Source: Octopus vulgaris (Eukaryota). From it: a stretch of 64,000 bases of DNA. The stretch covers positions 66,092,001 through 66,156,000 of the forward strand of contig OX597830.1 of the NCBI GenBank assembly GCA_951406725.2, read 5' to 3'. The translations under genes and the position numbers were made by a program. The notes under the pieces were generated by a model. It had not been told where the DNA came from. It made no database searches and saw only the letters and a list, made by a program, of their open reading frames with translations. Numbering within the stretch: the stretch's first letter is position 1; each line of letters starts with the position of its first letter. This document shows, in pieces, positions 8,481 through 63,439 of this stretch.

Positions 8481-9014
8481 TATATCTCTAACACATTATT
8501 TACATTTGACAAATATTTGTCCTCATCTTGTCTGTTGTTAACACAACGTTTTGGCTGATATACCCTCCAGCCTTCATCAGGTGTCTTGGGGAAATTTTGA
8601 ACCTGGGTTCTCATTCCTAAGGTATTTTTCGATATTATTATTATTATCATTATTATTATCATTATTCAGGTCGCTGTCTGGAATCGAACTCGGACTCTTG
8701 GGGTTAGTAGCCCGCACTCTTAACCACTATGCCATATGCCTGGGACGTAGTGGTTAAGAGTGTGGGCTACTAATCCCAAGATTCAGAGTTCAATTTTCAG
8801 GCAGTGACCTGAATAATAATAATAATGATATCAAAAAATACCTTAAGTACGAGAACCCAGGTTCAAAATTTCCCCAAGACACCTGATGAAGGCTGGAGGG
8901 TATATCAGTTGAAACGTTGTGTTAACAACAAACAAGATGAGGACAAATATCCATCAAATGTAAATAATGTACATAATTCTTCATCTCTTGAATATAGAAC
9001 TATATCTCTAACAC
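8481..9014. mobile_element. Head-to-head inverted dimer of a tRNA-headed short retroelement with hammerhead-like tails
   Basis: 8493-8970 is an imperfect palindrome. It has tRNA-like A/B boxes at the centre, a (TAA)n spacer, and a CTGATGA...GAAACGTT motif in each arm (degenerate in the left). Flanked by the 14-bp direct repeat TATATCTCTAACAC (8481-8494, 9001-9014). Confidence 0.8.
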
Positions 9015-9869
9015 TTAAGAATTTGGTGATGTTATCCAGTAATGATTCATTTATTACATAATAGTGATTTTATAAAAGAAAGGGAGCTTGGACTTGGAGA
9101 AAATACATATGTCAGTGTCATCTGTACACCCTAGATATCTAAGTAATGTCAGGATTTATTGATTCTGAACAGAAGTGGATGATTGCATATTTGGTCATTG
9201 CATCAATACTTTTATTAGTAACATGGGCTCTACAGACCTTTGAACTTTGAAGCAAAAACCTGTTGAATATTTTCTAGAAGAATTTCCTGACAAAATATTT
9301 TGTCAGGCTGAACAATGAAACCAGAAGATATGCAGGTCAAACAGGGCAATGCCACCACCTTCAGTACTTCAATGGCAGAGATGAAGATATATCTCAGAAT
9401 GCTTTTTTCTTAATGGGAATTGTGCAGCTTCCAAGTTGCAGAAACTACTGGAACAAAAATTCAATTCTGAGACAGAAAAATCAATGCCCAAGAATCAATA
9501 GCTTGTAAATACATGTGTAAACACTTATATGTAATCAACCTACCTGGGCAGGTGAAAGTCACATGACAACAAGTAAAAACCACATTCACAATGTGCACCA
9601 ATATAGTTGTATTCTTCGTTGAAGTACTGTTGGTGTTTAGGGAATGAAGTCTCGGTCTTAGCATGTTGTATGTCTACATCATTGTAGGAGCTCATGTTGG
9701 GGAGGCATTGTATTTGAGAAGAGAGATGCCATGCTTGAACAAGACAACAACCTCCATGTATGTGTGTAAATGTCTATACATTTTTGTATATATTTAGATT
9801 CAGATGAATTAAGTACATAAGTTGAGGCACCAGAATTTAGTACGGTATTATCCATGCAATTTCAAAATA

Positions 9870-10210
9870 AGGTGGTTAAAATCAAAATAAGCAACAGGAT
9901 ACCCAGAGGTAATGCTATACGATCATTTCAAGTGATTCCATTTAATTAAAAAATGCAACCATCACATCAGTTTAAATGCAGAGCAATCCTCAGCTGCATA
10001 AACACGTAGAATTAAATTAGAACAGATGGACACATTAGTATAATTTTACCTAAAACTTCCAAGAAGGTAAGGAGATAGACAAAGAACATGCCATGCTGTT
10101 TTCACTTCAGCTTAGAATGTAATGGTTGTATTAATTAAATGGAGTCGCATGAAACGATCGTACTGCATTAACTCTGGATATCCTGTTGCTTATTTTGATT
10201 TTAATCACCT
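9870..10210. mobile_element. Fold-back element with hammerhead relic (Penelope-type)
   Basis: Inverted arms of about 95 bp (9870-9966 vs 10117-10210). GAAACGATCGTA-CTGCAT at 10151-10168; ATGCAG-CTGAGGA on the minus strand ending at 9999. Confidence 0.6.
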
Positions 10211-11356
10211 CATTTTTCTATGTATGATAGATAGATATCTTGTCATTATCATCATTTAACACCAACCTTTTCACGCTTGACTAAGTCTGGAATTTTTACA
10301 GTCAGATGCCTTTCCTCTCACCAACCCTATTTCCAAGCAAGGTAATATTTCTCCATGGCTGGATTTATTGTCATGGATGATTGTAAATAAGCAATATCAT
10401 TTACAGCTGTCAAATAATCTCAAGACAGGGTACACATAGCACATATATTTATGTATATACATACAACAAGCTTCTTTCAGTTTCCGTCTACCAATCTACC
10501 AAATCCACTTACAAAGCTTTGGTGAGCCTGGGGTTTTAGGGGAAGACACTTGACCCAGATGCCACACAGTAGGACTGAATCCAAGATTGTATGGTTAGGA
10601 AACATGCTTCTTAACCACACTGCTAAGTGTGTGTGTGTGTATGTGTGTGTGTGTGTGTGTGTGACATACGAGTGACCTCTACGAAACCAGTTGCTTGTAG
10701 TTGTTAACATGGAATATTGAGGTTAATGTCTTTGGAATTTAAGTTATGTATTGCTTAGAATGTGTGGAAAGTTATGTACTGTAATTAAACAAATAGAAAT
10801 ATATGTATGATGCTAGCTTGTGTACATTGAAAGTATATTTACCAATCAGTGCATTACCTGCAGACTGCTATTTGTGCCATTCTCTGTGGAACGATTTATA
10901 AAAGAGCTGAAGACACCTCCGAAAGGAGGTGGGGGCACTGCCACGTCAAAACGGTAGAGGAGTAGGGGCTGAAACCGGACGTGGTTCCTCCTGATGATGT
11001 GTTGAACTAACTGGATTCTATAAAGGAGCTGTTGTGGTAGCAGACCACGAAACACGGTTGTAATTCCTCCTAAGGCTTATTTTTAAAGGTCCAAACAATG
11101 GAACACAAATGCAGAAGAAACCTATATTAATTTACCCTTGTTGAGAAAGAATAAGGATGTGATGTGGCCAGCTTCTCCTTTTGCCCTTCTTTGACATTGA
11201 TAAAATAAGTACCAGATAAAGTATTAAAGTTGATATAATCTAATCCTCCAGTATGGCCACAGTCCATTGACTGAAACCAGTAAAGGAGCTTGTGTGTGTG
11301 TGTTGTATATGTAATATACTGCATATGTGTATGAAAAGATGTGTGTGTGTGTAGAT

Positions 11357-11705
11357 CAGGGGTTCAGGACCATTTTTTATCTATGGACCCCTTCAAATAC
11401 CATTCTGTTCTTTTGGACCCCCATAGCCAGTTGATGTTTAGAAACTAGTTTTATAGAAACTTCTTTCAAAATTCCTCTTTTGTTTTCCACACATTAACTT
11501 GTGTAGGTTGAACTGTGTAAAATGTCAGAGAAAGAAACCTACCTGTTTCCTGCAATACATACCAGTACATACATCTAAAGCAGAATTTTTCCAGGGGCCC
11601 TTAAAATACTATCATGGATCCCCAATTTATTATTTTGTTGCATAGACACAAAAAAATTTTATATGGACCCTCAGGGGCCATAGGGACCTAGGTTGAGAAC
11701 CAGTA
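11357..11705. mobile_element. hAT-like MITE
   Basis: Ends caggggttc.../...ggttgagaaccag with repeated atggacccc subterminal motifs. A relative at 31912-32559 (cagtggttctcaacc...ggttgagaaccatt) contains a nested SINE A. Confidence 0.65.
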
Positions 11706-12179
11706 GTGTTGATTGATAGGTGTGTATGTTGTGTGTTGTGGAATAAGAGAAAAGAGTGGAAGCGATTCTGGGGAATGTCGCCAAACAACTTGCAGACAAG
11801 CTTTGTTGTAGTATGTGTGTGTATGTATATTATTCACAAGTTCTGCCTACCCTTTACAACTTCCCTATTCTAATTATTTCTCGGCCATAACCCAGTTATC
11901 TGCTATAATTAATGCATATAGTAACATATCAACACACCAAGTCTTGGTGACATAATTCTCTATAATTTCCCAGAGAATTACAAAAGTGGCATTATTTGTC
12001 TTGAAGTATGTTAAGTACATCAGTTTCATACAAAACAGTAAACAAAAAGAGTTGTGTTATTTACATTCCATCAATGTGCAGATATGACTGTGATTAAGAA
12101 GCTTGCTTCATAATCACTTGGTTTTAAGTTCAATCCACTGCGTGGGCACCTTGGACTAGAGTCTTCTTTTTTTGGGCCT

Positions 12180-13395
12180 CATCATCATCATTTAACGTCT
12201 TTTGTCCATGCTGGCATGGGTTGGATGGTTTGACCAGGGTTGGCAAACTAGAAGGCTGCACCAGACTCCAGTCTAATTTGGCATGGTTTCCATAGGTGGA
12301 TACCCTTCCTAACACCAACCACTCCAAGAGTGTAATGAGTGCTTTTACATGTGTGACACCAGTATTTGCCACGACAGTAATTTTACTTGGTTTGATAGGT
12401 CTTCTTCTCAGGCAAGACATAACGCTAAAGGTTTCAGCGGTTGCCTCCATGAGGCCCAATGCTCAAAAGGTGCTTTTTAAATGCCACCGGCATGGGTGTC
12501 AGTTACAGAGCACCAACATGAACCACAGCTATGATTTTACTTGACATGTTTCCTCAAATGCAGCATATTGCCAAAGATCTTGGTCACTAGTCATTGCCTC
12601 TGTGAGGCCCAAAAGTTCAAAGATCATGCTTCACCACCTCATCCCATGTCTTCCTGGATCTACCTCTACCACAGGTTCCCTCCACCGAGATTGGCACTTC
12701 TTTACATATCTGTCCTTGTCTATACACATCACATGACCATACCAGTGCAGTCATCTCTCTTGTACCCATCTGATGCCCACTTTTCTCTCAAGATGCTTAC
12801 ACTCTTTCGAACATGTACATTGACATTGCACATCCAGTGAAACATACTGGCTTCATTTCTGTCAAGCCTACGCATGTCCCTAGCAGTCACAGCCCCTATT
12901 TCACTGCCATGTAGCATAGCTGTTCACATACAGGCATCATACAATCTGCCTTTCACTCAGAGAGAGACCTTTGTTGCCAGCAGAGGTAGGAGCTCTCTGA
13001 ACTTTGCCCAGCCTAATCTTATTCTCACAGCTATGCTCTCAGAGCATCTCCACCTCTGCTACTAACTTGGCCACCTAGATAACAAAATGCTATCTACTAC
13101 CTCTAGCTTACCCCACTGGCAGTTTGGAGTTTATTTTCTGCATATTTTCAGTGTTTATTTACCTGTGCCTCTTCCACACACAAAAGCTATTTGCCCTGTT
13201 AACCTTCCTCTGATATTATTGCACCTCTTATGTATCCAAAACTTACACTGGGTGCATCTTATGCAGTTTCTACCTATGCCTTTTCTACAAATCGAGCAGG
13301 GCTGTCTACCTGAAGGGATTTGTGATTTGTCTGCCTTCTTACTTATTAAGTTTGAACAATACCTTAGTTTGAACGAGGTTGATAGAGATTGTATG
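12180..13395 (-). mobile_element. 5'-truncated, decayed RTE-clade LINE (RT C-terminal half plus 3' UTR)
   Basis: Minus strand reads ...YLGGQV...RIRLGWAKFRELLPLL...KGRLYDAC...MLHGSE...RRLDRNEASMFHWMC, with stops and frameshifts. The 3' UTR ends in (ATG)n and matches the many short (CAT)n-tailed fragments. Confidence 0.85.
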
Positions 13396-13407
13396 TGTGT
13401 GTATAAA

Positions 13408-14316
13408 CAGGGTGTTCAGGCCAAAATAAAACACAGTAGCCTATCCAAAAATGAAAGTATTTTAAAACTCCAAGGATATGGCGGTGCCCCAGCATGGCCA
13501 CAGCTCATGAGCTGAAACTAGAATCAATCATATCAACTAGATTATGGCTGGGAGATAATAGTTTACTCAGTATAGTTGCCCTCAGCTTCCACTAGAGCCT
13601 CAAGGTCATTTCAGAATCTAGCACAAGTGTTCCTCAGTGTGTCCTTGGGAAGATCTTCAAACACCTGACCCCGGCCACCAGCTCGGCCCTGGTGTTGCAG
13701 GCAGAGTAGTTGGTGCCTTTCTCAACCACACCCCAAACATAGTAATCCACAGGAATTAGGAGGCCAGAAATTGGAATTGGCAAAGTAATAGAAATTCTTT
13801 GACAACCACTTCTGACTCTCTCTCCAGAGGTATATATAGCAAGGAGCTGAATCTTGTTGCTACCCATATGGCCTTCCAGCAGCAACCCTCTCCAGCCAGT
13901 GCTTGACCAGAGTCTCCAGCAGTTTCACACAGCCATCTGAATTGACTTTGAGACTCCATTCAAAGATACTTGGTGGTATGACATCACCACCACTACAGAC
14001 ACACCCAAAGACCATCATAGTCTGAGAGAATTTGTTTTTCATGACGACCATGTAACATCTTTCAGCCTTTTTAGTGTTCACGGAGCATTGAGCAGCAGTC
14101 ATGATATCAGCATTTTGATACCTGACACGGGTCATGATACAGGTAGCTCTTTTCAAATATTCAGGTGGCTTCCAGTCATGCATGTCAGTTAACTTTTTCT
14201 CATCTATTACTTTAATCTCTAAGCTCATCATTGCTGTTTACTGTTCACCAATACATCAAGCTGCCCCTTAAAAAAAGGAGACATAGAAAATCATCAAACT
14301 TAGTTCAAACCCTCTG
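13408..14316 (-). mobile_element. Tc1/mariner-superfamily transposase remnant (maT/DD37D-like)
   Basis: Minus strand gives MVFGCVCSGGDVIPP, QQDSAP and FWPPN..DYYVWGVVE across frameshifts (ORFs 13860..14231, 13634..13885). Terminal cagggtgttc at 13408. Confidence 0.8.
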
Positions 14317-15446
14317 TGTATGTGTGTGTGTAATCATCATCATCATCATCATTTAACATTGGTTTTCCATGCTTGCATGGGTTGGACGGTTGGACAAGAC
14401 CCAGCAAGCCATAGGGTTTGGCATGTTACTATGACTTGATGCCCTTCTTAATGCCAACCACTGTACAGTTTGTACTGGGTGCTAGTGAGGTAACCATGCA
14501 GCTTGCAATATAGAATAGGGAAAACAGAAAGGAAAAAAAGAGAAAAAGAACCCATGACTAAAATTTTTTTAATTATTATTCCAGCAAGTAATAGATAACT
14601 TTAGATATGTTTCGGTATTATCAGACCTTTTCAGTAAAGTATAGACTTCACTATATTTACTAAAGTAGTAATGAGGAAATCTCTAAGTAAATGTACAGTG
14701 TGTGTACACTTAGCTAGTACAAAATAAAGTTTATAGTTTAGAGAGTGAATTTAGTCAGCAACGTCATTTGTATGGGAAAAAAATAGTTATGTTAGTTTTA
14801 ACATATTTGACACAGTGAACATGTATTATAAACTGGACAGTTTGATTGTTAGAGAGAAAGGGAGAGATGAGCAAATATTTTAACAGCTGTTAGAATTTTT
14901 AATTAATTACTGTTGTTAATTAATTCACCTCCTTCAGTCATTCCTTATCCAGGAAACCTATAATCAACAATGTCACAGCTATTACTCTTTTACTCTTTCA
15001 CTTGTTTCAGTCATTTGACTGCGGCCATGCTGGAGCACCGCCTTTAGTCAAGCAAATCGACCCCGGGACTTATTCTTTTGTAAGCCCAGTACTTATTTTA
15101 TCGGTTTCATTTTGCCGAACCGCTAAGTAACGGAGACATAAACACACCGTCATCGGTTGTCAAGCAATGCTAGGGGGACAAACACAGACACACAAACACA
15201 CACACGCATATATATATATACATATATACGACGGGCTTCTTTCAGTTTCCATCTACTAAATCCACTCACAAGGCATTGGTCGGCCCGGGGCTATAGCAGA
15301 AGACACTTGCCCAAGATGCCACGCAGTGGGACTGAACCCGGAACCATGTGGTTGGTAAGCAAGCTACTTACCACACAGCCACTATGATCATTCTAACTTT
15401 CGTAGAATATTGGCATGTGACTCAACTATCGTAGATATTGTATATT

Positions 15447-15690
15447 CATCATCATCATCATCGTTTAACGTCTGTTCTCCATGCTAGCATGGGTTGGACA
15501 GTTCGACCGGGGATCTGGGAAGCCAGACGGCTGCACCAGGCTCCAGTCTGATCTGGCAGTGTTTCTACAGCTGGATGCCCTTCCTAACGCCAACCACTCC
15601 GTGAGTGTAGTGGGTGCTTTTTACGTGCCACCGGCACAGGTGCCAGGCGAGGCTGGCAACGGCCTCGATCGGATTGGTGCATTTTACGTG
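15447..15690 (-). mobile_element. (CAT)n-tailed RTE 3'-end fragment (representative copy)
   Basis: catcatcatcgtttaacgtc...ccatgctagcatgggttggac...ggatgcccttcctaacgccaacc. Copies in both orientations, e.g. 6644-6970, 17944-18110, 21791-22135, 23449-23900, 26577-26885, 44200-44540, 62915-63218. Confidence 0.85.
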
Positions 15691-18600
15691 AACCAGTCCA
15701 CACCACCACCACCACCTCTTTAAAGGCAGTTGGTAAGATGGGATTTGAGATTTTGGTTGCTATATCTAGCAAGTCATGTGACCACTTAGAGGCTTTCTCT
15801 TTGCTGTTAGCTTTTAGTCAGTATTATAAACTGGTAATCACTTGTCCCTTGTGAAAATTTATCAGAAAGATTAATAAAATACATTTCATTGTCAAAAGTT
15901 TGACTGATTAGTTTATAGTACTTCATTTGTTGTTGTCTGACTTGGCTCTTCAAAGTTCAAATTCTAATCCGGATTGGCATTATCTTTTGTATTGTATCAA
16001 GTCAGTAATAGACAACCTGTGCTGAAGAATAGTATTGAGAATTTGGAAGCGAATGTCATAATCTTTCTAGCTCTACGTAGTGGAGGCACTTGGCTTAGTG
16101 GTTAGGATGCTGGGCTCTTGATCATAAGACAGTGGTTTCAGTTCCTGGACTGGACGATGTCTCGTGTTCTTGAACGAAAAACTTAATTTCATGTTGCTGG
16201 TAAAAGTGAGTAATCTTGTGATGCACCAGTGCCCTGCCCAGGGAGGAATGCATGCACCAGAGTAACTAGGAAACTAGACCTCTGCTCCTCACAAAGTAAT
16301 GTGGACTAACCCACTAATATTGAAATTACATGCTCCAATATGCTGCATAGACCTAACTCACTCTCTCTCATACAGTCCCATCTCACATGGTTGTCTTTTG
16401 TCCCCGGCTCTTGTAATCCCTACCTCTCATAATCCCCTTCTCTCACGGACCCTGTATCTCAAAACCCTGTCTTCCAAAACTATATCACTAAGCTCTAACA
16501 ATAGTGGGATTCAGGGTTTTTGTTTTTATAAGTTAGTTAAAGGCACAGGTGTAGCTGTGTAGTAAGATACTTGCTTCCCAACCACATGGTTCCAGGTTCA
16601 GTCCCACTGCATGGCACCTTGGGCAACTGTCTTCTGCTACAGCCTTGGGCTGACCAAAGCCCTGTGAGTGGCTTTAGTAGATGGAAACTGAAAGAAACCT
16701 GTTACATGAAGGTATGTGTACATGTGTGCATCTTTGCATCTGTGTTTGTCCCCATAACCACACTTAACCAGTGTTGTGTCTGTGTGTTCACATCCCTGTA
16801 ACTTAGCAGTTCAGCAAAAGAGACCAATAGAATAAGTACCAGGCTTTAAAAGGAAAAAAAATAAGTACTGGAGTCAATACATTTGACTAAAAATTCTTCA
16901 AGGCAATGCTCCAGCATGGTCACAGTCTGATGACTGAAACAAATAGAAAATAAAAGATAAAAAGAGGAGAAAGAGCTTCTGCGACTGAAGACAAAAAGAG
17001 AAGAAATCACATCATAGGTTACTCTTGGAACTGAGATCTACCATATTTTAATAGGGGCTTAAAATTTGGAAAAAGGGATTTATAAGGGATTATAATACTA
17101 TCCATGTATAAGAAACTCTTATATTTTTTAACTTAATTTTTGACAAAAAAAAAGGTTCCTTATACCCATTAAAATATGGTAATTTAAATGCTTGCTGCAG
17201 AATGGACTTTACTAAGAGCCAGATAGATAGTGGTGTTCTTAACCCTTTAGCATTTAAACTGACCATATCTAGCGAAAATGTTCTATTTTATTTTATGATC
17301 AAACCAGCAAGATCCAGCCTCTCACACCTACTCTACAATGTCATTCTGAAAATAAACAAATCACACTATTGAAATCTCAAAGTTATGCAATAATGCATGA
17401 TTACTTGAAAACCATCATCATCATCATCATCATTTAATGTCCATTTCCTCTGTTGGCATGGATTGGATGGTTTGAGAGGAGCTGCCCAGGGACCATGTCT
17501 TTTATGGCATGGCTTCTACGGCTGGACGCTTTTTGTAACACTAACCAGCTTACAGTGTGTACCGAGTGCTTTTACACAGCACTGGCATGGGTGCGTCTAC
17601 ATGGCACCAGCACCTGTAAGCCTGCAAGATAGGAATGTTCAGCTGGAGCAGGGATGCAGGGGACAAGCCTGTATGCAAGGACAACCACACTTAGCTTGGC
17701 ATGTCTTTTTCAAGCCTAGCAAATTGCCAGGTGTCTCAGTCTCCAGTCATCCCCTCTGTGAGTCCCAATGTGTCTGTGAATTCTTTCTCCCCACTTCATC
17801 TCATATCAAGCATTACATCTGACACAGAATGCTTAAGGGTGATTGATTAAGGATACCAGCCATTGAATAGGCTTCTGCACAGTTTCCTTGTTGACTCAGT
17901 TTTATTCACAGCTTGGGTCAATTCAAGGCTATTGTAATTGACAAAGCACCCACTACACTCATGGGAGTGGTTGGCGTTAGGAAGGGCATCCAGCCGTAAA
18001 AACATTGCCTGATCAGACTGGGCCTGGTGCAGCCTTCCGGCTTCCCAGACCCCAGTTGCACCATCCAACCCATGCCAGCATGGAAAGCGGATGCTAAATG
18101 ATGATGATGATTTGCCCGAAACCCCATGTGGCAGGATTGAACCCAGGATCATGCGATGACAAAGTGAAATTCTGAAACAGCACATCACGGCACCATGCAT
18201 GTGCTCCGTTAAGTAACAAAAGCAAACAAATAATTAATTATACTTTGCTCTCCCTCGACGAGTGGTATCTTTCTGTGGTATTTATTGATCTGTTTCTCAG
18301 ACAGACAGACTGTGATAGGAAGAATGAAGCTGAGATAGAATACAAGCCATCAACCTTTCTGCTAGTAAGCAATGTTATCAACTCAACTATCTGATACTAT
18401 TATTTTATATGACAGTTTTTTTGAGTTTTTTTTTTTAAATATTTTTTTTTGTACTTTTTCATTATTACCCTGCCTCACGTCATGATGACATACAGACGTA
18501 CCTCAATATATATCAGTAATTGATTCCATGCCATGTGACTTAAATTGAAAAATTATGTAACACAGAAAAACATTTTTTTTTTTTAAATGTATTAGTTCAT

Positions 18601-18971: not shown

Positions 18972-19012
<41 letters not shown>

Positions 19013-22616: not shown

Positions 22617-22655
<39 letters not shown>

Positions 22656-23898: not shown

Positions 23899-23939
<41 letters not shown>

Positions 23940-33879: not shown

Positions 33880-33910
<31 letters not shown>

Positions 33911-33930
33911 TTCATTTATATCTCGCGTAT

Positions 33931-33990
33931 TTGCCGCTGAAGAGGGGAAATTTCTTATGAATTAACCCCGAAATTGGACCAATACGGTAA
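33931..33990 (+). ncRNA. Type I hammerhead ribozyme, apparently intact
   Basis: Stem I TTGCCG/CGGTAA; core CTGAAGA (33937-33943); stem II GGGG/CCCC; GAAA (33970-33973); stem III ATTG-gac-CAAT; cleavage triplet AUA ending at 33984. Confidence 0.8.
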
Positions 33991-34112
33991 TAACGAATTT
34001 TTTAGAGATTTCTATCGGTTTGTTTTGAGACGCATAAATTATAATGGTTATCAACAAAAATTTTTTGTTTCGGCATATTTGGCATTAGAATTTTTCTTCT
34101 GCCCTTATCTTG

Positions 34113-34161
<49 letters not shown>

Positions 34162-34549
34162 GCACACACACACACAAGAATGCATGTATGTACATATAAC
34201 AAGTTTCTTTCAGTTTCTATATAGCTAATCTGCTCACAAGACTTTGGTTAACCTGAGGCTATAGCAGAAAACACTTATCCAAGATGCCATGCAGTAGGAC
34301 TGAACCTGAAACGGTGTGGTTGGGAAGCAATCTCCTTTATCACATAACTACACCTGCACCTGGTTTGGTTAGTAAGGACTAAATGGAAAACTATATCAAG
34401 TTTAGTTTTCAATACTGTCTGAAACAGAACAACTGATTGGTTCATTTGAAATATTTTTATGCTCTTTGTCCAATGAGGTTATTGCTTTCAAATATAATGA
34501 AAAATGTTCTGTTGTGTCTGGGGAGAGTCATTTTCTTTTTGTGCCTTAT

Positions 34550-34736
34550 TATGTAACACACTCACCAGTAAAATTTCCACGTTTTTCTTATTTTTAGTGT
34601 CCTAAAATTTTCGTTCTTGCAACCTTTTCAATAGTTTTTACTCTCAAAACTATTGAAAAGGTTGGAAGACAACGAAAATTTTAGGACAATAAAAATAAGA
34701 AAAACGTGGAAATTTTACCAGTGAGTGTGTTACATA
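34550..34736. repeat. Near-perfect fold-back palindrome (~187 bp)
   Basis: tatgtaacacactcaccagtaaaatttccacg...cgtggaaattttaccagtgagtgtgttacata. Arms of about 90 bp with a short loop. Confidence 0.9.
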
Positions 34737-38513: not shown

Positions 38514-39322
38514 AATGAATGCCATTCTTATTTCTTTATTGCCCACAAGGGGCTAAACACAGAGGGGACAAATAGGGACAGACAAAAGGATTAAGTCAAT
38601 TACATCAACCCCAGTGCATAACTGGTACTTAATTTATCAACCCCGAAAGGATGAAGGGTAAAGTCGACCTCGGCAGAATTTGAACTCAGAATGTAACAGC
38701 AAACGAAATACCTATTTCTTTACTACCCACAAGGGGCTAAACACAGAGGGGACAAACAAGGACAGACAAAGGGATTAAGTCGATTATATCGACCCCAGTG
38801 CATAACTGGTACTTAATTTATCAACCCCGAAAGGATGAAGGGTTAAGTCGACCTCGGCAGAATTTGAACTCAGAATGTAACAGCAAACGAAATACCTATT
38901 TCTTTACTACCCACAAGGGGCTAAACACAGAGGGGACAAACAAGGACAGACAAAGGGATTAAGTCGATTATATCGACCCCAGTGCATAACTGGTACTTAA
39001 TTTATCAACGCCGAAAGGATGAAGGGTAAAGTCGACCTCGGCAGAATTTGAACTCAGAATGTAACAGCAGACGAAATACCTATTTCTTTACTACCCACAA
39101 AGGGCTAAACACAGAGGGGACAAACAAGGACAGACAAATGGATTAAGTCGATTATATCGACCCCAGTGCGTAACTGGTACTTATTTAATCAACCCTGAAA
39201 GGATAAATTGACCTTGGAGGAATTTGAACTCAGAACGTAACAGCAGACAAAATACCGCTAAGTATTTCACCCTGGTGTGCTAACGTTTCTGCCAGCTCAC
39301 CGCCTTTAATGAATGCCATTCT
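38514..39322 (-). repeat. SINE B tandem tetramer (184-bp period) inside one TSD
   Basis: Units start at 38529, 38713, 38897 and 39081. 15-bp direct repeat AATGAATGCCATTCT at 38514-38528 and 39308-39322. Confidence 0.9.
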
Positions 39323-42491: not shown

Positions 42492-42522
<31 letters not shown>

Positions 42523-43735: not shown

Positions 43736-43769
<34 letters not shown>

Positions 43770-45079: not shown

Positions 45080-45134
<55 letters not shown>

Positions 45135-50960: not shown

Positions 50961-50995
<35 letters not shown>

Positions 50996-51413: not shown

Positions 51414-51448
<35 letters not shown>

Positions 51449-53544: not shown

Positions 53545-53958
53545 TCTCTATATATATAAATGGCAAAATGTCTGTCTGTGTGTGTGTATGTGTGTATGTC
53601 CTTTATACAAATCCACAATTTTTCAGTTAGAGAGCTCGCACTTTCTATGGTCATTCAAAACCGTCCAAGGGTGGTCGTGCACATCTTTACATTTCCCCAG
53701 TCACCCCCGCAAAGCCATTAAAAAATCAATAGAAGTGACTTTTTTGTGAATTTTTCTACCCAAAACCCAATCAAAATGCCTGAAACTTGATACGCCAATT
53801 GAATGCCAGCTAGCTGTATGTGATTGGTCGGAGATTTGGACAGTACTCGCGTGTATGTGTGCACACATGCAGCTGTATATGCATGCATTAGCACTATTTT
53901 TGTTGTTTTTGTAAAATCTCAGAAAAATATGACCCGGTGTTGCCGGGTCATAGTGCTA

Positions 53959-53959
<1 letters not shown>
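53545..53959 (+). mobile_element. Non-autonomous Helitron
   Basis: A|TCTCTATATATATAAA start; hairpin tatgacccgg-tgttg-ccgggtcata; CTAG|T end. Confidence 0.88.
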
Positions 53960-53995
<36 letters not shown>

Positions 53996-54041
53996 TAATT
54001 GTCATTTGTAATGAATAGCCTCTTTATTGTTTATTTTTCAG

Positions 54042-54113
54042 TTCTTGGGTGAGAGCGAAGTCGATCAACCAAAGGGCATTGAAATCGTGAAGGATGTCAT
54101 CAGAAAGATGAAG
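54042..54113 (+). CDS. GULP1: GULP1/CED-6 coding exon (PTB domain)
   Basis: Acceptor ttatttttcag and donor aag|gtaatt. 72 nt, phase 0/0. Reads FLGESEVDQPKGIEIVKDVIRKMK (cf. recalled GULP1 [24 protein letters not shown]). Confidence 0.96.
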
Positions 54114-54616
54114 GTAATTCTACTTCACCAGTTTCTCGTCACTGTTGTCAAATCTTGTCCATGAAAGAAATTTATGAAGGAATTTAAATGAAGAAAATCC
54201 AAACGAACAAAAGATGGGTGGAAACTTACCAAAATATATTGTGCTTTGACATATTACATATTTATAGGTGGCAAATTAGCAGGGTCGTTAATGTGTCAGA
54301 TGATGTGCCTTCCAGTATTTTTTATTCTGGTGTCTGAGGTCAATTGTGCCCATCTTTGTTTCAAAATCAATCTAGTACCCATCTTGAGTGGTGCACTGAT
54401 AAAAATCAATTGTATCAAATGGAATGCTATGTGTAACTTGTTCTTATTCACTGCATTCTGAGTTCAGGTCCCTCTATAGGCTACTGAAAATGTGTGACCT
54501 AGTCATAAGGGTTTTTGAACTCATGATTTGCAACATTGTGGTTTCAATTCCAGGACCGAGTAGTATGTTGTATTCTTGAACAAGGCACTTCATTTCATAT
54601 TGCTCCAGTCCATTCA

Positions 54617-55313
54617 GCTGTAAGCAGGGACGTGCCGCCTGGGTAGGCAAGGTAGGCAGTGCCTCCTCTGAATAAAATAGATCGACAGTAACATTTTCCT
54701 TTTATGGCAAAATATGCATCGAATTCAATAAAATTATGAAGGTTACTGTTACTCTGATTACTATGCATAAAATGCAAAATATTTTACTTTTTTTATTGTT
54801 TGTTCCTTCTCAAGCCATGCCTGGCTCATAGGGCCAGTTTCCCGGTTTCCTTGGTGTATAGGTTCCCCACCTGAACAGGACGCCGGTCCTTCGCAGGTGA
54901 GCTGCAAGATGCAGGAGGAAAGAGTGAGAGATGGTTGTGGCGAAAGAGTCAGTAGAAGTTTGCCAATGCCTTCTGCCGGAGCCGCGTGGAGCTTAGGTGT
55001 TTCGCTCATAAACACACATCACCCGGTCTGAGATTCAAATCCTCGACCTTGAGTCCGCTGCTCTAACCACTAGACCATGTGCCTCTACTTTTTGTTGGTT
55101 AGGTAGGCATAATTCGCCTCTGCCTTTCAATCTCAGTATTAAAACTACACATAGGACTGCTGTAGTACACATGCCGCATACATTCCTACAACAACATTTT
55201 CTTTACGTGCTATAAAGGCAGAAGTAAATCTGTCACACGCCTGTGTTTTGCTACATAAACATCACCAACTGCCTAACCTGAGTAATTACTGACAGCACAT
55301 GCCTGGCTGTAAG
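54617..55313. mobile_element. hAT non-autonomous element with 8-bp TSD, nested in a SINE and containing a SINE
   Basis: TSD GCTGTAAG at 54617-54624 and 55306-55313; ends cagggacgtgc / gcacatgcctg; SINE inserted at about 54796-55090. Confidence 0.8.
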
Positions 55314-56048
55314 TAACCCTGCAATGGACTGGCTTCCCATTCAAAGGGTGTGTTGTGATCTCAGTTACTTATACACCATGGAAGCCAGGTAACCTGCCCT
55401 ATGAGTCATAAGACTCGAGACAATAATGCCCATAGGTTGATGATGATAAGACCTAATTGATGTTTTGAAAATTTCTAGTTTTGTAACAATTCCAACAAAG
55501 CACTTTTCTCGTGACATTATCTCGGTAATTTCTAAACATCATTCTACTTTTGTATCTTTGATTTCCTGTTTACATTTCAAACAGAAAATTACAACTGGAT
55601 TCACCGTTTACCGTCCAAGAGACCGCATATTGTTGTTCCTCATTGAAAATCACTATGCTACAATTCGGTTCCCCTTCAGCAATTCTAACAGACACACAAT
55701 AGCATTCTGATTTTCTGTCTACCATTCAATAAACTCTATTATTGTTTGGTTATCTAATCTACAATTCAATGGATACGTTGATACTTTGATCTCATTCCAC
55801 AGTTCAAACAACAACAATAAATTTCTCTTTGATTCCACACCTACAGTTTGCCAAACCTCATGTCACTATTGATTCTTCATATTCAGCTCAACACGCACTT
55901 CGTGATTCTTTGATTCTGCTCCTGCAGTTTCTTAACCCCCAACCTCATTTTATTACTAAACTATTTTATATAAAGTTCAAAGGTGACCAAAACCCTGTGA
56001 GTGAATTTGGGAAACAAAAGCTGAAAGAAGCCCATCAGTTTGCATGCA

Positions 56049-56092
<44 letters not shown>

Positions 56093-56519
56093 GAATTTTA
56101 TCTCTAATTCATATTTTATATATTTATACTGTGAAATTTGATTTAATCCTAAATCTAATTTTTCCCTGGTGCCAGTAAGGTGACGTTGGTAACGATAACG
56201 CTCGAATGGTGCTCTTTTACGTGCCACTGGCGCGGAAGCCAGTTGGCTGCTCTGGCAACGATCACACTCAGATGGTGCTCTTGGCACCCTACTAGCACGG
56301 GCACAAGTGCCAGTAAGGCGACGCTGGTAACGATCATGCTCGAATGGTGGCCTCTAAGTGCCACTGGCATGGAAGCCGGTTAGCCGCTCTGTCAATGATC
56401 ACACTCGTATGGTGCTCTTTGCACCCTGCTAGCATGGATGCCAGTCATCGAATTTGATTTCTTAACATACTTTATATTAGTCTCCAATTGTACTTGGACA
56501 TATTTTAGATTGAATGTTA

Positions 56520-56756
<237 letters not shown>

Positions 56757-58443
56757 CTATGCCCTTCCTAATGCCAAATATGTGTGTGTGTGTGTGTTGA
56801 CATCGAATGATACAGGCTGGCTCGAAATTCAAGCTACTCCTTTTACTCTTTTACTTGTTTCAATCATTTGACTGTGGCCATGCTGGAGCACCGCCTTTAG
56901 TCGAGCGAATCAACCCCAGGACTTATTCTTTGTAAGCCTTCTACTTATTCTATCGCTCTCTTTTGCCGAACCGCTAAGTTACGGGGACGTAAACACATCA
57001 CCATCGGTTGTCAGGTGATGTTGGGAGGACAAACATATACACACACACACATACATATATATGACTGGCTTCCTTCAGTTTCCATCTTCCAAATCCACTC
57101 ACAAGGCTTTGATCGGCCCGAGGCTATAGTAGAAGACACTTGCCCAAGGTGCCACACAGTGGGACTGAATCTGGAACCATGTGGTTGGTAAGCAAGCTAC
57201 TTCCCACACAGCCACTCCTGCACCTACTATTTAATTTATTTTGATGTATTAAATGGGAGAGCTGATTCTGGGCCACCCTGTAGTTGTAAATGAGTGTCAC
57301 TGTCATACAAGTTGTGTCATTCATTTCCAATATTCTGTGAAGGCGGCGAGCTGGCAGAATCGTTAGCACGCCAGGCGAAATGCTTTGCGGTATTTCATCC
57401 GCCGCTGCGTTCTGAGTTCAAATTCCGCCGAAGTCGACTTTGCCTTTCATCCTTTCGGAGTCGATAAGTTAAGTACCAGTTATGCACTGGGGTCGATGTA
57501 ATTGACTTAATCCGTTTGTCTGTCCTTGTTTGTGCCCTCTGTGTTTAGCCCCTTGTGGGTAGTAAAGAGATATATAATATCCTGTGAAAACATGATCTGG
57601 CCACGGAAATATTACCTTGCTCAGAAACCGGTGAGTGTTGTTGATAGGAAGGGCTCCTGGCCATAGAAAATCTCCCTCAACAAACACCATCCAACCCATG
57701 CAAGCATGTAAAACGGTTGTTTCCCATTGCTCCAGTCTGTTCCTCTGTAACTGAGTTTCCACCATGATCGAATGGCATCCCATTCAGGGGTCATGTTCTC
57801 AATCACTTATATGCCGTAGTAACCATGTAGCTGTTGAGTCCCAGGACTCAAGATATTGCTCAGTTTACTTACAATTCACTTGCCAAAACTTGCGGCTGTG
57901 TAGTAAGAAGCTTGCTTCCCAATCACACGGTTCCAGGTTCAGTTCCACTGTGTGGCACCTTGGGCAAGTGTCTTCTACTACAGCCTCAAGTCAACCAAAA
58001 TCTCGTGAGTAGATTTGGTAGACGGAAACTGAAAGAAGGCCATCATATGTGTGTATTTGTGTGTGTCTTTGTGTCTGTTTCCCTACCACCACCACTGCTT
58101 GACAACCAGTGTTGGTATGTTTACATCCCTGTAACTTAGTGGTTCAGCAAAAGAGACCAATGTAAGTCCTGGGCTTAAAAAAATAAGTAGTGGGGGGTCG
58201 ATTTTGTTCAACTAAAATTCTTCATGACAGTGCCTCATCATGGCCACAGTCTAACGACTCAAACAAATAAATGATATATTATACAGTTCAATATGCATCA
58301 TATTACTCTTTGATTCTACACCTAGTTTACCAAACCTCACATTACTATTAATTCTTCATTTGCAGTTACCATTATTTGTTTTTTGATTCCTCGTCTACAG
58401 TTAGACACTGTGTTGTTTTATTGTTTTGTTTTCTCATCTCCAG

Positions 58444-58542
58444 TTCAACAAACACATTAAGAAGGCAGAAGGTCAGAAACCCCCCAAAGTAGAACTTACA
58501 ATATCAGTCGATGGAGTTACTATACTGGACCCCAAAACAAAG
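58444..58542 (+). CDS. GULP1: GULP1/CED-6 coding exon (PTB domain)
   Basis: Acceptor ttctcatctccag and donor aag|gtattt. 99 nt, phase 0/0. Reads [33 protein letters not shown]; lies inside ORF 58426..58617. Confidence 0.96.
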
Positions 58543-58633
58543 GTATTTTTCTTATATTACTCACTAGAACTTTCTAGCAATAGAAGCCATTTTGCAATCT
58601 ACCTTTTAAAAACATAGACACATGGTTGACATT

Positions 58634-59201
58634 TTGGGTTGTCCGGAAAGTTAGTACCGATTTATAGTAGCTTAACTTTCGGCTTATTTTAGAACATGGT
58701 TGAGTCCATAAAATAGGATTTGACTACACCTTCATTTAGAGCACAGTTTAAGCTATTTTTTCGTGGAAGAAAGTTTATGTTCCCATAACCTGTGTTAATT
58801 CTGTAACCCTTTAAAATGGAAGATAAGAAAGTTCATTTTTGGCACTTGATGCTTTGGGAACCAGACAAAAATTGCTGCAGCTCGGCTGGGATGTGTTACC
58901 TCGACCCTCCATATTCACCTGATATTGCTCCTTCAGATTTCCACTTATTCAGGTCTCTGCAGAATAGTCTTAATGGTAAAAATTTCAATTCCTTGGATGA
59001 CGTAAAAAAGATACCGTGATGAATTCTTTGCCATGAAACCACCTCAATTCTGGGAAGAGGGTATTTTCAAGTTAAAGGAAAGATGGAGATGCATTGTGCA
59101 ATGAAATGGTTCATATTTGGTTGATTAAAAATGTAATGGCAAGTATTTATTGACCTTTTTCTTTCCTTTAAAAATCGGCACAAACTTTCCGGACAACCCA
59201 A
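58634..59201 (+). mobile_element. Internally deleted mariner element
   Basis: TIRs ttgggttgtccggaaagtt / aactttccggacaacccaa, with TA on the right. The transposase start MEDKKVHF is joined to QLGWDVL..PPYSPDIAPSDFHLFRSLQN (mariner YSPDLAP-type motif). Confidence 0.92.
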
Positions 59202-59631
59202 TACATTAACTGAAAAAATGCAGTCTGTTCAAAAACACAATGTTATTGTTTAGTCCCAAGTTGTTCTCCCTTTGACCATTCCATCTGTTTTTTAAATGGA
59301 AACTGAAAAAAGCTTGTTGTGTACATCTTGTTTTGACATTAAGTGATTATTACAAATGAATGGCATTTGTTTTCAACATTCTACAAAAACATGTCTGACA
59401 ATGGGGAGAGTATTACCTTATTTGGAAATAGGTGGGGATTGACAACATGAAGAACATCAAGTCATAGAACATCTCCCTTGGTAAACTCTGTCCTACACAT
59501 GCAAGCATGTAAAAGGGGATGTTAAAACAATGACAATGGTGTATCTAATTAATAGTAAATTATCCCTTTTGATACCAGCCTGTCAAAAACTGCCCTTGGT
59601 CCTTTGATGCAAACTTCCTGTTTTAAAGTAA

Positions 59632-59930
59632 TCTTTATATATAAAAGTGAAGTTGTGTGTCTGTCTCCTACGATTTAGATTCCTAACTACTCCCACATTT
59701 TGCGGTGCAGTTTAACCAAAAGCGGGTATCTTATAGTCGTGATTCATATCGACCCCTTCTGGGTATTAGCATGCGTCTACGATGAGTCTACAATTTAAAA
59801 AAAAATTTACCATAATTTTTTCCCATTTTTAATGCATTTTTTGCTATTGTATAAGGGAAGTAACTCTCTAAAAATGCTTATATAGTTATTTCCCTTACAA
59901 ACCCGAGCAATGCCGGGTGATACTGCTTAG
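59632..59930 (+). mobile_element. Non-autonomous Helitron nested in a TTAA-type MITE
   Basis: A|TCTTTATATATAAAAG start; cccgagcaatgccggg hairpin; CTTAG|T end. The flanks are the two halves of the 26017-type MITE. Confidence 0.8.
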
Positions 59931-60110
59931 TATTAATTAAAACTTTCCACTAAAATTTCATGTTAATTATGATTACAAAAACCCAATAAATATTGAAAAA
60001 GTTATCTTACTAATTTCATTAGTTTCAAAATAAATTGAAGCAAAGGCTGTGTTTTTCAACAGAAATATGGTAGCAAAAGGATTATTATATGTTTTTATTA
60101 TTTATTTATT

Positions 60111-60548
60111 TTAACCCGTTAGCATTCAGATTAATTTATCAAATTTAATGCTTATTTATCTACATTTTAAAAAATTAATCATGTGGTGTGTTGTAGCTTC
60201 AAGATTTTGAAGATGTGTTTGTTTATTTTTAGAATGACATTGTAGGGTAGATATGAGAGGCTGGATCTGGCCTGTTTCAACATAAAACTGGTAGAATATT
60301 TGGGTTGGATATAGCTGGCTTAACCCTTTAGTGTTCGCATTATTCTGCCAAAATTAATGCTTCTTCATCCACATTGTTTTGAATTAATCATTCATTAATC
60401 TTGTAGCTATGAAATTTTGATGAGGTAGCTGTTCATTTTTAAAACGATATTGTAGGGTTGGTGTGAGAGACCAGATCTGGCCAGTTTGAACATAAAACAG
60501 GCAGAATACTTTTGGCCGGATATGGCCGGTTTAAATGCTAAAGGGTTT
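60111..60548. mobile_element. Second TTAA MITE family (CCCTTTAGCATT...AATGCTAAAGGG), two adjacent or nested copies
   Basis: Ends ttaacccgttagcattc and gtttaaatgctaaaggg, with an internal ttaacccttta at about 60320. Relatives near 5790-6181, 17239-17410, 44176-44741 and 45395-45618. Confidence 0.7.
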
Positions 60549-61227
60549 ATGATTTAAGGGGTATTTGGTTGTTCTTTCTAGCTGATCTAGCCAGGCTTCA
60601 TTGTTGACTTGTTTGTGTGTATTGTAGTATACAGCATTGCAGTATATAGCACTGATCAACTGAAAAAAGTTTCCAGCCTTTTTACGAGCAAATTAATTAG
60701 AGTCGGTATAACTTCTTACTGTTAGTATTTTGCTTTGTATAGTCTGGCACTAACGACGGGAGCTGAGCAATTCAACACAGCCGAGAGACTGCATAGTTGT
60801 GTTGATTGATTTAATGTTTAATATGTCTGTATTGTAATTAGTAAAGATGGTGGTATATTGGTAAAACAAAAAAAAAAAAAAACAATTAAAGTAATGACAT
60901 GAATAATTAATAACATTTATATTTACATCCTGGAAGTGTCGAAGCTTTGTGATGTGAAATAAATCATTTAAAGGAGCATCTCAAAGTGGATGTGGATATA
61001 AATAACAGTATGTAATATATTGAGTTTAAGAAGAACTTCAGGTTGAAACTTTAGTGTAGTGGGTTGCACATTTGTCATTGTCATAGGAGTTGCCGGTTCA
61101 AGTCCCACCAGCAGCCTTTCACTTTTTTTTATTTTCATTTTTTTTACATCAAAACATCTTTTAACAGAATATATTTTATGCTTTTATTTATAGTTGTAAC
61201 CATTTCAAGTCTCACTTTTAGGATTTA

Positions 61228-61780
61228 CTAGCAGTATTGCCCAGCGTTGCTCGGGTTTGTTTCAACCCTTTAGAATTGGAATTTTTGAAAAATAAAAATA
61301 TGCCAAAAATTTTGCATCATGTTGCTTGTTATTCTCTTTAAGTGAACAGTTTTCTGGTTGAAATATGCCGAAAAATGGCAACACAGCAGTCAAAAATCGT
61401 AAAAAATAGGGATTTTCATAGAAAAAAAAGCACCTTTTTTATGTAAATAATTTTTGGTGTTAACATGGTCCAATTTGAATTTTTTCTTCTATGGAAGGAA
61501 GAGCAAGCCTTCTTCTATCATCATCATCATCATCGTTTAGCATCCGTTTTCCATGCTAGCATGGGTTGGACGGTTCAACTGGGGTCTGGAAAGCCAGAAG
61601 GCTGCACCAGGCCCAGTCTGATCTGGCAATGTTTCTACGGCTTGATGCCCTTCCTAACGCCAACTCTCAATTTTGGTCAACGTGCGCCGCAGGGTCTTGG
61701 AGGAGATAGTGTTAGTTGAAGGCTACCAAACTTGCCACACATACACACACAGACAACTTCAGCTTTATATAGAGAAGAGA
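61228..61780 (-). mobile_element. Non-autonomous Helitron, same family as 19469-19965
   Basis: A|CTAGcagtattgcccagcgttgctcggg...ctttatatagagaagaga|T. The body is colinear with 19469-19965. Confidence 0.85.
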
Positions 61781-62461
61781 TTTCAGATTTTCTCAATGGT
61801 TCTTCGATGTAAACAAATTTACTTTATCACTTTTGATTGAATGAAAGGGAGATCAAAGGTTCTTTTAGTGTAATGGTTAGCATGTCTGTCATGGATACAA
61901 AAGATTGCAAGTTCAAGTCTCACTGGCAGCCACAAACCCTTTTTTAACCCCCACCCCCATCTAAGGGGTTTTTTTTGTTTGTTTTTACCCAATATATTAC
62001 TGTTATTTACAGATGCATCAATTTTGAAACTTATCCTCAAACTGAAAGATTTAATTTTGAACCTCTGTGTGTGAGTTCAAACAGCACAAACATTCAACTT
62101 ATCCTATCATTCTTCCAGGATTGGTAGACTTAATCTGTCACCCATTGCAGTGCCATCATCTGGCCATTGGGTCCCTATGGCAGAATCCACTCTCTTGCAA
62201 GTATTTGGGACCAGGCCTCTCTTTTATACGATAGCAGACTGTGATATAAGAAAGATTTCATCTCTATTTTCAGGGAACCAAGTGACCATATAGAGCTTTC
62301 TCAATAGTTTTTCAGCTACTATGTAGAATATAATGTAATTTAATTAATAGCCTGTTCATCATCATTTCTTGTACTTTGTCAAGAGACATTAATATTGTAA
62401 TTAATATCACGCATTCGTCATTGAAATGTTCTGACCTTCTTTTGTTTTCTTTCGTTTCTAG

Positions 62462-62599
62462 ATCATCTTACACCAGAATCCTCTACATCGTATATCCTAC
62501 TGCGCCGATGACAAATCAGATAAACGAATGTTCACATTCATTGCCAAAGCCGCTGATTCTAATAAACATTTTTGCTATGTATTTGACAGTGAAAAATGT
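62462..62599 (+). CDS. GULP1: GULP1/CED-6 coding exon (PTB domain core)
   Basis: Acceptor tttcgtttctag and donor tgt|gtaagt. 138 nt, phase 0/0. Reads [46 protein letters not shown], with the [14 protein letters not shown] and [10 protein letters not shown] motifs of CED-6/GULP. Confidence 0.97.
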
Positions 62600-63347
62600 G
62601 TAAGTCTGAAAATTTGTGACAAATTTCTACCAAAGCTCAACATTACCTCCATTAACCATTTTGATAACAAACTATCTAAAATCACTTCTTGTTTTATGGC
62701 CCCAAAACCATTCAAAGATCATCCAGTAGAACTTGGATGGTCAGTAGAACACACTATGGCTGTGTGGTTAAGAAATTTGCTTCCCAGCCACATGGTTTTC
62801 AGTTCAATCCCATTGCATGGTTCCTTGGGTAAATGTCCTCTGCTATAGTCCCAAACTGATCAAAGCCTTGTGAATGGATTTGGTAGGTGGAAAATGAAAG
62901 AAGTCTGTCTTTCTGGCCCCTGTGCCGGTGGCACGTAAAAAACACCATCCGATCGTGGCCGTTGCCAGCCTCGCCTGGCCCCCGTGCCAGTAGCATGTAA
63001 AAAGCACCATCTGTCCGTGGCCGTTTGCCAGCTCTGTCTGGCACGTAAAAAGCACCCACTACACTCATGGAGTGGTTGGCGTTAGGAAGGGCATCCAGCC
63101 GTAGAAACACTGCCAGATCAGACTGGGCCTGGCGCAGCCTTCTGGCTTCACAGACCCCAGTTGAACCGTCCAACCCATGCTAGCATGGAAAGCGGACGCT
63201 AAATGATGATGATGATGATATATATATATATATATGTATATATTTATAAATATATATTGTATTAAGGCTTGTTTTTTATGTTTAGTTATAATAAAAACAC
63301 TTTTTTCATTACCTGAAAGGTTCCTTTATACTTCTGTAGAGAACAAA

Positions 63348-63439
63348 TTTATTCTTAAACAAAAATGTTGACAGTGACTTTGAAGTTTTGGCCTGTTAAG
63401 CCAAAGTCACTGTCAACAACATTCTTGTTTAAGAATAAA
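63348..63439. repeat. Fold-back hairpin
   Basis: tttattcttaaacaaaaatgttgacagtgactttg...caaagtcactgtcaacaacattcttgtttaagaataaa. Confidence 0.85.

What the first reader, a model, noticed from the sequence alone, without database searches (positions are those of the whole stretch)
8481..63439. Recurring theme: several unrelated hammerhead-bearing elements in one 64-kb window
Seen: hammerhead cores or relics at 8540-8585, 8878-8923, 9912-10168, 14598-14640, 33931-33990, about 34650-34684 and about 63370-63405. They share the fold but not primary sequence, and most lie in inverted or fold-back structures or beside microsatellites. Inference: the genome hosts a diverse, abundant set of ribozyme-carrying non-autonomous retroelements that protein-based annotation would miss. 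No autonomous Penelope ORF is present here, so the mobilising partner is unproven.
Basis: inference. Interest (0 to 1): 0.7.

Follow-up and report, generated by a model that had tools for sequence, protein, structure and literature searches.

The report
Six Penelope-type hammerhead repeat families
The window holds copies of six unrelated repeat families that each carry a hammerhead-ribozyme motif (self-cutting predicted, not tested); one is the end piece of a protein-coding Penelope-like retrotransposon and the others are likely non-coding passengers or stubs of such elements, a known kind of element that appears common across this genome.

Summary
Confirmed, with corrections. All seven listed sites are hammerhead motifs or relics. 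They belong to six insertions of six unrelated repeat families (78-4200 first-look candidates each); 8540/8878 are two arms of one insertion. Core-intact motifs exceed chance (C3-G8: 2 vs 0.05 in shuffles; U3-A8: 2 vs 0.23). The 34650 motif is the published U3-A8 variant. Families A, B, D and E show the Penelope-like-element (PLE) footprint: an inverted 5' arm and a one-sided 3' tail; A and E also show target duplications. 'Non-autonomous, partner unproven' is only partly right. Family A, which has a tRNA-like head, directly follows a decayed PLE reverse transcriptase/endonuclease frame (22 of 25 loci). The genome also holds intact 781-aa PLE frames with a hammerhead in their terminal repeat. 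Family D is a young 448-nt non-coding unit in partial tandems (retrozyme type); its enzyme donor is not identified. Motif density in flanks elsewhere (about 1.2 per 64 kb) makes this window ordinary. Cleavage and circular RNA are untested. The kind is published (Cervera & de la Peña 2014, 2020; Li 2026), and this scan already noted the same theme on other DNA of this genome.

The parts
8481..8494 (+). Left 14-bp target-site duplication of insertion A
   Evidence: Identical to 9001-9014
8495..8740 (-). Family A inverted arm (tRNA-like head, AAT run, hammerhead), lacking the ~30-nt 3' tail
   Evidence: 85% identical to the main arm; ends at family position 226 of 256
8540..8585 (-). Minimal hammerhead, C3-G8, G12A change (predicted inactive)
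8741..8812 (+). tRNA-like head of family A (A and B boxes 45 nt apart in the family; both altered in this copy); likely Pol III promoter
   Evidence: A box 22, B box 24, both 17 of 40 heads; ARAGORN calls a tRNA-like fold only at lowered thresholds (15 calls at -ps80, 0 at default)
8741..9000 (+). Family A main arm = terminal repeat (pLTR) of a coding PLE
   Evidence: 3727 candidates; head follows the endonuclease frame in 22 of 25 loci
8878..8923 (+). Minimal type I hammerhead, core intact, 4-nt palindromic stem III; predicted cut 8918/8919
9001..9014 (+). Right target-site duplication of insertion A
9794..10117 (-). Family B main arm, 5'-truncated, with long 3' tail
   Evidence: 4200 candidates
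9912..9999 (-). Family B hammerhead relic: long stem II, palindromic stem III, stem I 3' strand mutated
10118..10216 (+). Family B inverted arm; holds only the 3' half of the hammerhead
14550..14700 (-). Family C fragment (old, 71-82% to other copies; ~316-nt tandem unit at two other loci) with hammerhead relic at 14598-14640
33907..34124 (+). Family D fragment (positions 1-220 of a 448-nt non-coding unit) between TA microsatellites
   Evidence: 1975 candidates, 95-98% identity among the best 40
33931..33990 (+). Intact type I hammerhead with 6-bp stem I, 4-bp stem II and a paired stem III; predicted cut 33984/33985
34498..34736 (.). Family E head-to-head pair of a ~200-nt non-coding element; plus arm cut short
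   Evidence: 2230-2365 candidates
34650..34684 (+). U3-A8 variant minimal hammerhead (mirror copy 34602-34634, minus strand); both copies carry deletions in stem II
63273..63439 (.). Family F fold-back: main arm on minus strand (63273-63403) truncated inside the hammerhead (63370-63403), short inverted arm on plus
   Evidence: 1375 candidates
5560..5670 (+).

Best explanation
The seven sites are six independent insertions of six hammerhead-bearing repeat families, likely all written into DNA by Penelope-like element (PLE) reverse transcriptase/endonuclease proteins; family A is shown to be the terminal repeat of a coding PLE, while B-F are likely non-coding passengers (retrozyme type) or truncated PLE ends. 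Shown: motifs, families, footprints, the coding parent of A, intact PLE frames in the genome. Inferred: a PLE protein binds the RNA, nicks AT-rich DNA and starts cDNA at two fixed sites near the RNA 3' end, which gives a main arm with a tail and a shorter inverted arm; copying usually stops early, so most copies are hammerhead-containing stubs. D (448-nt unit, partial tandems, TA targets) was likely copied from a multimeric or circular RNA by a Neptune-type enzyme. The hammerheads are predicted to cut such multimers to unit length, the minimal ones (A, C, E) only as dimers; most window copies are decayed and likely inert.
For: Motifs above chance. Paired changes between subfamilies with the core kept: a D relative at 81% (one copy, L047) changes one stem I and one stem II pair on both sides; B relatives at ~70% (L149, L279) have different but paired stems I and II around the same core and stem III palindrome. 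Two fixed 3' ends, main vs inverted arm, counted from the core: A about +119 vs +84-95; E +185-199 vs mostly +123-132; B mostly +197-227 vs +112-129; D unit positions ~220 and ~270. Inverted arm present in A 19 of 30, E 19 of 29, D 16 of 25, B 14 of 19 loci. Duplications of 10-15 bp in E 12 of 29. This matches the PLE inverted copy and tail (PMC8557442 passages) and the two RT start sites shown in vitro (PMC11167929 passages). Coding parent of A: 2 of 30 A loci carry endonuclease sequence upstream; searching with it gave 2932 candidates, with RT-like frames (tblastn to the 781-aa PLE down to E 4e-41) and the A head within 40 nt in 22 of 25 loci. Intact 781-aa RT+GIY-YIG frames in many copies; U3-A8 hammerhead 420-940 nt after the stop codon in 10 loci (11 rows) of that family, and a C3-G8 one in 2 loci of a second family.
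Against: No cleavage or circle data. No sequence similarity links B, C, D, E or F to a coding PLE among 58 GIY-YIG loci for which it was partly tested; PLE remnants near D (L041, L138, L172) are separated by microsatellites and look like separate insertions. C and F were not tested for fixed ends, and F's majority at G12 is A, so F's intact core is inferred from a minority of copies. B's inverted-arm count is inflated because the query held the fold-back; three D loci are one place and two are a local duplicate. Rfam models do not match. Published tests show low activity: min-HHR monomers did not cut (PMC4209133) and 8 of 9 frog dimers gave no product (Li 2026).
Confidence: 0.82

Rival explanations
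1. All six families are only 5'-truncated ends of autonomous PLEs; no truly non-autonomous element is involved.
For: True for A. B extends at least 670 nt upstream in two loci and E at least 21 nt in a few; only the top 40 copies per family were scored.
Against: D runs through its own unit junction into more of the 448-nt unit in 15 of 25 loci with no coding sequence attached; C has ~316-nt tandem units; no PLE coding within ~3.7 kb upstream of the one long B copy fetched in the right direction (L277).
Confidence: 0.2
2. The fold-backs (notably E and F) are MITEs of DNA transposons and their motifs are chance matches in AT-rich hairpins.
For: E looked like a fixed ~280-bp palindrome when searched with the palindrome; the U3-A8 descriptor reached 2 hits in a shuffle; E's stem I has only 3 contiguous pairs.
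Against: Searched with one arm, E occurs solo (10 of 29 loci), with varying turn points, unequal ends and 10-15-bp duplications. It has the unpaired base before stem II, G10.1-C11.1 and the palindromic 15.1-16.1 stretch described for min-HHRs (PMC4209133), and a coding PLE here uses the same U3-A8 core.
Confidence: 0.05
3. The window is a special cluster or a host-co-opted set of ribozymes that regulate a local transcript.
For: Six families in 64 kb; family-level count 5 insertions of A, B, D, E against about 1.9 per 64 kb in flanks.
Against: Strict C3-G8 motifs: 2 here against about 1.25 per 64 kb in 409 kb of flanks. Most window copies are broken, lie on both strands and have drifted like their families. 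No protein-like frame was recognised among 9 ORFs of 130 aa or more (read by eye; exons were not tested).
Confidence: 0.03

Closest known systems
Minimal hammerheads in PLE terminal repeats, including the U3-A8 variant of Schistosoma mansoni Cercyon elements (Cervera & de la Peña 2014, PMC4209133; parts 1-2 of 4 read)
   Same: Type I fold, extra base before stem II, palindromic minimal stem III, many unrelated families per genome, mostly solo stubs, pairs 100-700 bp apart on opposite strands, U3-A8 covariation.
   Different: Different host; B has a very long stem II with a U-U at its base; activity untested here.
Animal non-LTR retrozymes (Cervera & de la Peña 2020, PMC7229834, passages; Li, Clavereau & Pollet 2026, 10.64898/2026.07.22.740005, parts 1-3 of 5 read)
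   Same: D (448 nt) and C (~316 nt) are AT-rich non-coding tandem units with one type I hammerhead each; PLE co-occurs in the genome.
   Different: D's unit is slightly above the 170-400 nt of the 2020 paper (within the 51-972 bp of the 2026 preprint); arrays here are short and two-armed; the window copies are sub-monomer; circular RNA not shown; no pLTR homolog found for D.
EN+ PLEs: Penelope/Poseidon (PAc of Anolis, PMC11167929, passages) and Neptune (PMC8557442, passages)
   Same: RT then C-terminal GIY-YIG, hammerhead in the terminal repeat, inverted 5' copy, one-sided tail, microsatellite targeting by elements with the CX2-5CxxC linker.
   Different: A's parent carries a tRNA-like head at the start of its repeat; the 781-aa family has an extra upstream frame. 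Clade names rest on linker motifs, not on a tree.
Schistosoma Sm-alpha/Sj-alpha SINE-like elements (seen second-hand in PMC6765202 passages)
   Same: Pol III-type promoter joined to a hammerhead, as in family A.
   Different: There the promoter sits at the 3' end of the cleaved unit and units are tandem; here the head opens the terminal repeat of a coding PLE and copies are solo or head-to-head.

Membership tests
Type I / minimal hammerhead ribozyme | Core CUGANGA (or U3-A8), GAAA, UH with stems I and II | tested here: met
   Met in window for A(+), D, E; met in family majority for A, B, C, D; F only in a minority of copies
Type I / minimal hammerhead ribozyme | Palindromic or paired stem III | tested here: met
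   Palindromes in A, B, C, E, F; 5-bp hairpin in D; partly required by the descriptor
Type I / minimal hammerhead ribozyme | Compensatory changes in stems | tested here: inconclusive
   Seen by eye in one D relative and two B relatives; too few masters for a statistic
Type I / minimal hammerhead ribozyme | Match to Rfam hammerhead models | tested here: not met
   No match at E<=10; whether those models cover minimal variants was not checked
Type I / minimal hammerhead ribozyme | Self-cleavage at N17 | not testable with these tools
   Needs in vitro assay or raw RNA reads
EN+ Penelope-like element (family A parent) | RT followed by GIY-YIG endonuclease, then the terminal repeat | tested here: met
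   RT-like frames with YVDD and a C-terminal nuclease-like frame directly before the A head; the one 120-aa decayed fragment scanned had no Pfam match, so the nuclease call rests on recalled motifs
EN+ Penelope-like element (family A parent) | Intact ORF | tested here: not met
   Longest oriented PLE frame 321 aa among 25 loci about 3.7 kb long; family looks decayed
PLE-mobilised insertion (A, B, D, E) | Inverted 5' copy and one-sided 3' tail | tested here: met
PLE-mobilised insertion (C, F) | Inverted 5' copy and one-sided 3' tail | tested here: inconclusive
   F copies are often fold-backs but were fetched with a fold-back query; ends not tallied
Non-LTR retrozyme (family D) | Head-to-tail non-coding units, one type I hammerhead each | tested here: met
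   448-nt period with two intact motifs at L138 and L042; more than one unit in 15 of 25 loci
Non-LTR retrozyme (family D) | Unit-length circular RNA | not testable with these tools
   Only contigs of unconfirmed RNA runs were available
Non-LTR retrozyme (family D) | Homology to a PLE terminal repeat | tested here: not met
   No match in the PLE loci fetched; the sample of PLE families is small
tRNA-derived SINE (family A) | A and B boxes in a tRNA-like head | tested here: met
tRNA-derived SINE (family A) | Independent of any coding parent; LINE-type tail | tested here: not met
   It is the terminal repeat of a coding PLE
MITE (family E) | Fixed terminal inverted repeats and short uniform duplication | tested here: not met

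The most novel reading that the evidence does not exclude
A recently active Neptune-type PLE enzyme copies a foreign 448-nt hammerhead RNA circle (family D) in trans with no shared sequence, recognising structure alone, while a second PLE lineage (family A) ran on a tRNA-derived Pol III promoter and shed SINE-like stubs; the genome would hold some 50,000 core-intact hammerheads in dozens of families, a natural test set for how PLEs pick templates.
Probability: 0.3. Interest if true: 0.62.

Novelty: new member of a known kind. Interest (0 to 1): 0.3.

Why it matters
It extends PLE-borne hammerheads and retrozymes to a genome where I found no dedicated description (searches; an octopus repeat annotation, PMC13282606, has no occurrence of 'ribozyme' in its main text). 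The two fixed 3' ends on non-coding families are genomic support for PLE-driven spread of retrozymes, which the 2026 preprint inferred from co-occurrence and homology. It also warns that such fold-backs are easily filed as MITEs, SINEs or miRNA hairpins. The window itself is not special.

Tried and rejected
Rfam scans: no hammerhead or tRNA match; only sub-threshold miRNA-type hairpins. ARAGORN at default: 0 tRNA genes in the window. Two extra one-mismatch descriptor hits were rejected: 60003-60067 lies in a repeat whose majority lacks A6 and a stem III; 55434-55481 has no family over the motif. E as a MITE: rejected. D next to PLE remnants as proof of parentage: rejected, microsatellites lie between. 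Sequencing runs: no RNA holder listed; contigs hold D and E in runs labelled with four organism codes besides the main one and show the D unit junction, which genomic tandems explain equally well, so no evidence on expression or circles. Three of four B upstream fetches went in the wrong direction and say nothing (L278-L280). Unconstrained folding recovers stems I and II of D, only parts of the fold for E, and not the fold for A. Lünse et al. 2017 is not held (title seen in a reference list only). No supplements were read; those of PMC4209133, PMC8557442 and PMC13282606 may list these families.
Full report
Setting. The window is G000:C17:66092001-66156000 of a 2.8-Gb assembly in 227 contigs. 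It is rich in microsatellites and short repeats. An octopus is my inference from size and repeat content; no call names it.

Observation. I wrote a type I hammerhead descriptor and ran it on both strands against dinucleotide shuffles made in 500-nt blocks. With an intact C3-G8 core it finds 8878-8923(+) and 33931-33990(+): 2 against a mean of 0.05 in 40 shuffles (0.03 in 30 with a shorter stem II limit). With one core change it finds 5 against 0.13 in 15 shuffles: those two, 8540-8585(-), and two hits I later rejected. Rfam gave no hammerhead match.

Families. Each site belongs to a repeat family; first-look candidates (lower bounds, not copy numbers) were A 3727, B 4200, C 78, D 1975, E 2230, F 1375. 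Only the best 40 were scored and 20-30 loci fetched per family, so all tallies below are of near relatives. Alignments (44, 22, 18, 25 and 27 rows) show an intact majority core in A, B, C and D. In F many rows are truncated inside the motif and the majority has A at position 12; several rows keep the CUGA box and a 6-bp stem I. E's majority is the U3-A8 form in 28 rows and 14 of 30 arm-selected loci pass the strict descriptor. The six families are unrelated; the two A sites are one insertion with a 14-bp duplication. Diverged relatives keep the fold: one D copy at 81% changes a stem I and a stem II pair on both sides, and B relatives at ~70% have other but paired stems around the same core.

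Insertion footprint. PLE insertions often carry an inverted 5'-truncated copy and a 30-40-bp tail at one end (PMC8557442, passages), and the tail matches two RT start sites in vitro (PMC11167929, passages). Here an inverted arm is present in 19 of 30 A loci, 19 of 29 E and 14 of 19 B loci and 16 of 25 D loci (three D loci are one place, two a local duplicate; B's query held the fold-back). Main and inverted arms end at different fixed sites, about 30 (A), 55-60 (E), 50 (D) and 85-115 nt (B) apart; in D either end can be on either arm. E first looked like a MITE, but an arm-only search gave solo copies, varying turn points, a common 5' start about 11 nt before the core and 10-15-bp duplications in 12 of 29. 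TA runs follow the 3' end in D 21 of 25 and B 15 of 20 (130-nt window) but A 1 of 30 and E 4 of 30 (30-nt window), so the two pairs are not strictly comparable.

Partners. Family A opens with a tRNA-like head (A and B boxes 45 nt apart). I had read it as a SINE with a PLE tail; earlier notes of this scan said it is the terminal repeat of a coding PLE, and I tested that. L017 and L020 carry decayed nuclease-like coding just upstream. Searching with it gave 2932 candidates; in 22 of 25 loci the head follows within 40 nt and in 14 the hammerhead part follows within 1 kb; RT-like frames lie upstream. No intact frame was seen. Separately, a GIY-YIG search gave 148 matches of 150 scored (6136 candidates), many with a 781-aa open frame that carries RT and GIY-YIG (RT just under the Pfam cut-off), a C-X4-C-X2-C linker, direct repeats 99-100% identical in three of the five copies examined and a sense U3-A8 hammerhead in the repeat of many older copies. 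No sequence link from B-F to a coding PLE was found. D is young (95-98%), has a 448-nt unit, runs across its own junction in 15 of 25 loci and favours TA repeats, which points by inference to a Neptune-type donor.

Abundance. In 409 kb of flank from the fetched loci there were 11 strict C3-G8 hits (3 from the family used to fetch, leaving 8) against 0, 1, 0, 3, 0 in five shuffles, and 3 U3-A8 hits against 0, 2, 0, 0, 0. That is about 1.25 per 64 kb, or roughly 50,000 genome-wide if the flanks are typical, which is not shown. The window's 2 are ordinary. All loci together hold 122 distinct strict motifs in 26 clusters, some singletons being chance.

Mechanism. Shown: motifs, families, footprints, A's parent, intact PLE frames. 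Inferred: PLE-primed reverse transcription from two fixed RNA sites, early termination, trans-mobilisation of D and perhaps B, C, E, F, Pol III transcription of A, and cutting of multimers. Cleavage and circles are untested; published activity of such motifs is low.

Comparison and verdict. The theme is published: minimal hammerheads in many families across animals (PMC4209133, parts 1-2 of 4), tandem retrozymes including a mussel (PMC7229834, passages), their PLE origin (bioRxiv 2026, parts 1-3 of 5), 235 hammerhead matches in giant squid (PMC6962438, passages), Pol III-driven hammerhead SINEs in schistosomes (PMC6765202, passages). Searches for a tRNA-headed PLE or a PLE-dependent SINE returned nothing direct (listings). 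Earlier notes report the same kinds on other DNA of this genome; they are not independent support. New members of a known kind; interest 0.3.

Noticed in passing
L174 768-2204 and 2126-4468 (G000:C6:133343000-133350000); also L171, L173, L175: Young PLE family with an extra 479-aa upstream frame (no Pfam match) overlapping the 781-aa RT/GIY-YIG frame; terminal repeats 99-100% identical.
   Followed up: partly
L174 ~645-680 and ~5352-5390: In the youngest copies of that family the U3-A8 hammerhead has a G-U at the base of stem II and a broken stem I and fails the strict descriptor, while older copies pass.
   Followed up: no
L176 4801-4845(+) and 1959-2003(-); L183, L195: Second PLE family whose terminal-repeat hammerhead has a U-U at the base of stem II, as in family B; L176 has U4C in both arms.
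   Followed up: partly
L040, L065, L167; L054, L253; L282, L186; L188; L159; L271/L272 upstream of E: Further hammerhead families in flanks, one twice in L065.
   Followed up: no
L247-L276; contigs: Family E starts sharply about 11 nt before the core, at the 5' strand of a bulged stem I; a few copies extend about 10 nt further, so a longer parent may exist.
   Followed up: partly
window 38529-39204: 184-bp unit in 3.7 tandem copies at 96%; SINE-like by recall, not examined.
   Followed up: no
window 59930-60085 (minus) and L140: Another abundant old repeat (1149 candidates) that gave a false hammerhead hit.
   Followed up: partly
L136 (G000:C5:92313000-92322900): A ~5.9-kb local duplication carrying D and a B-like copy twice.
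   Followed up: no
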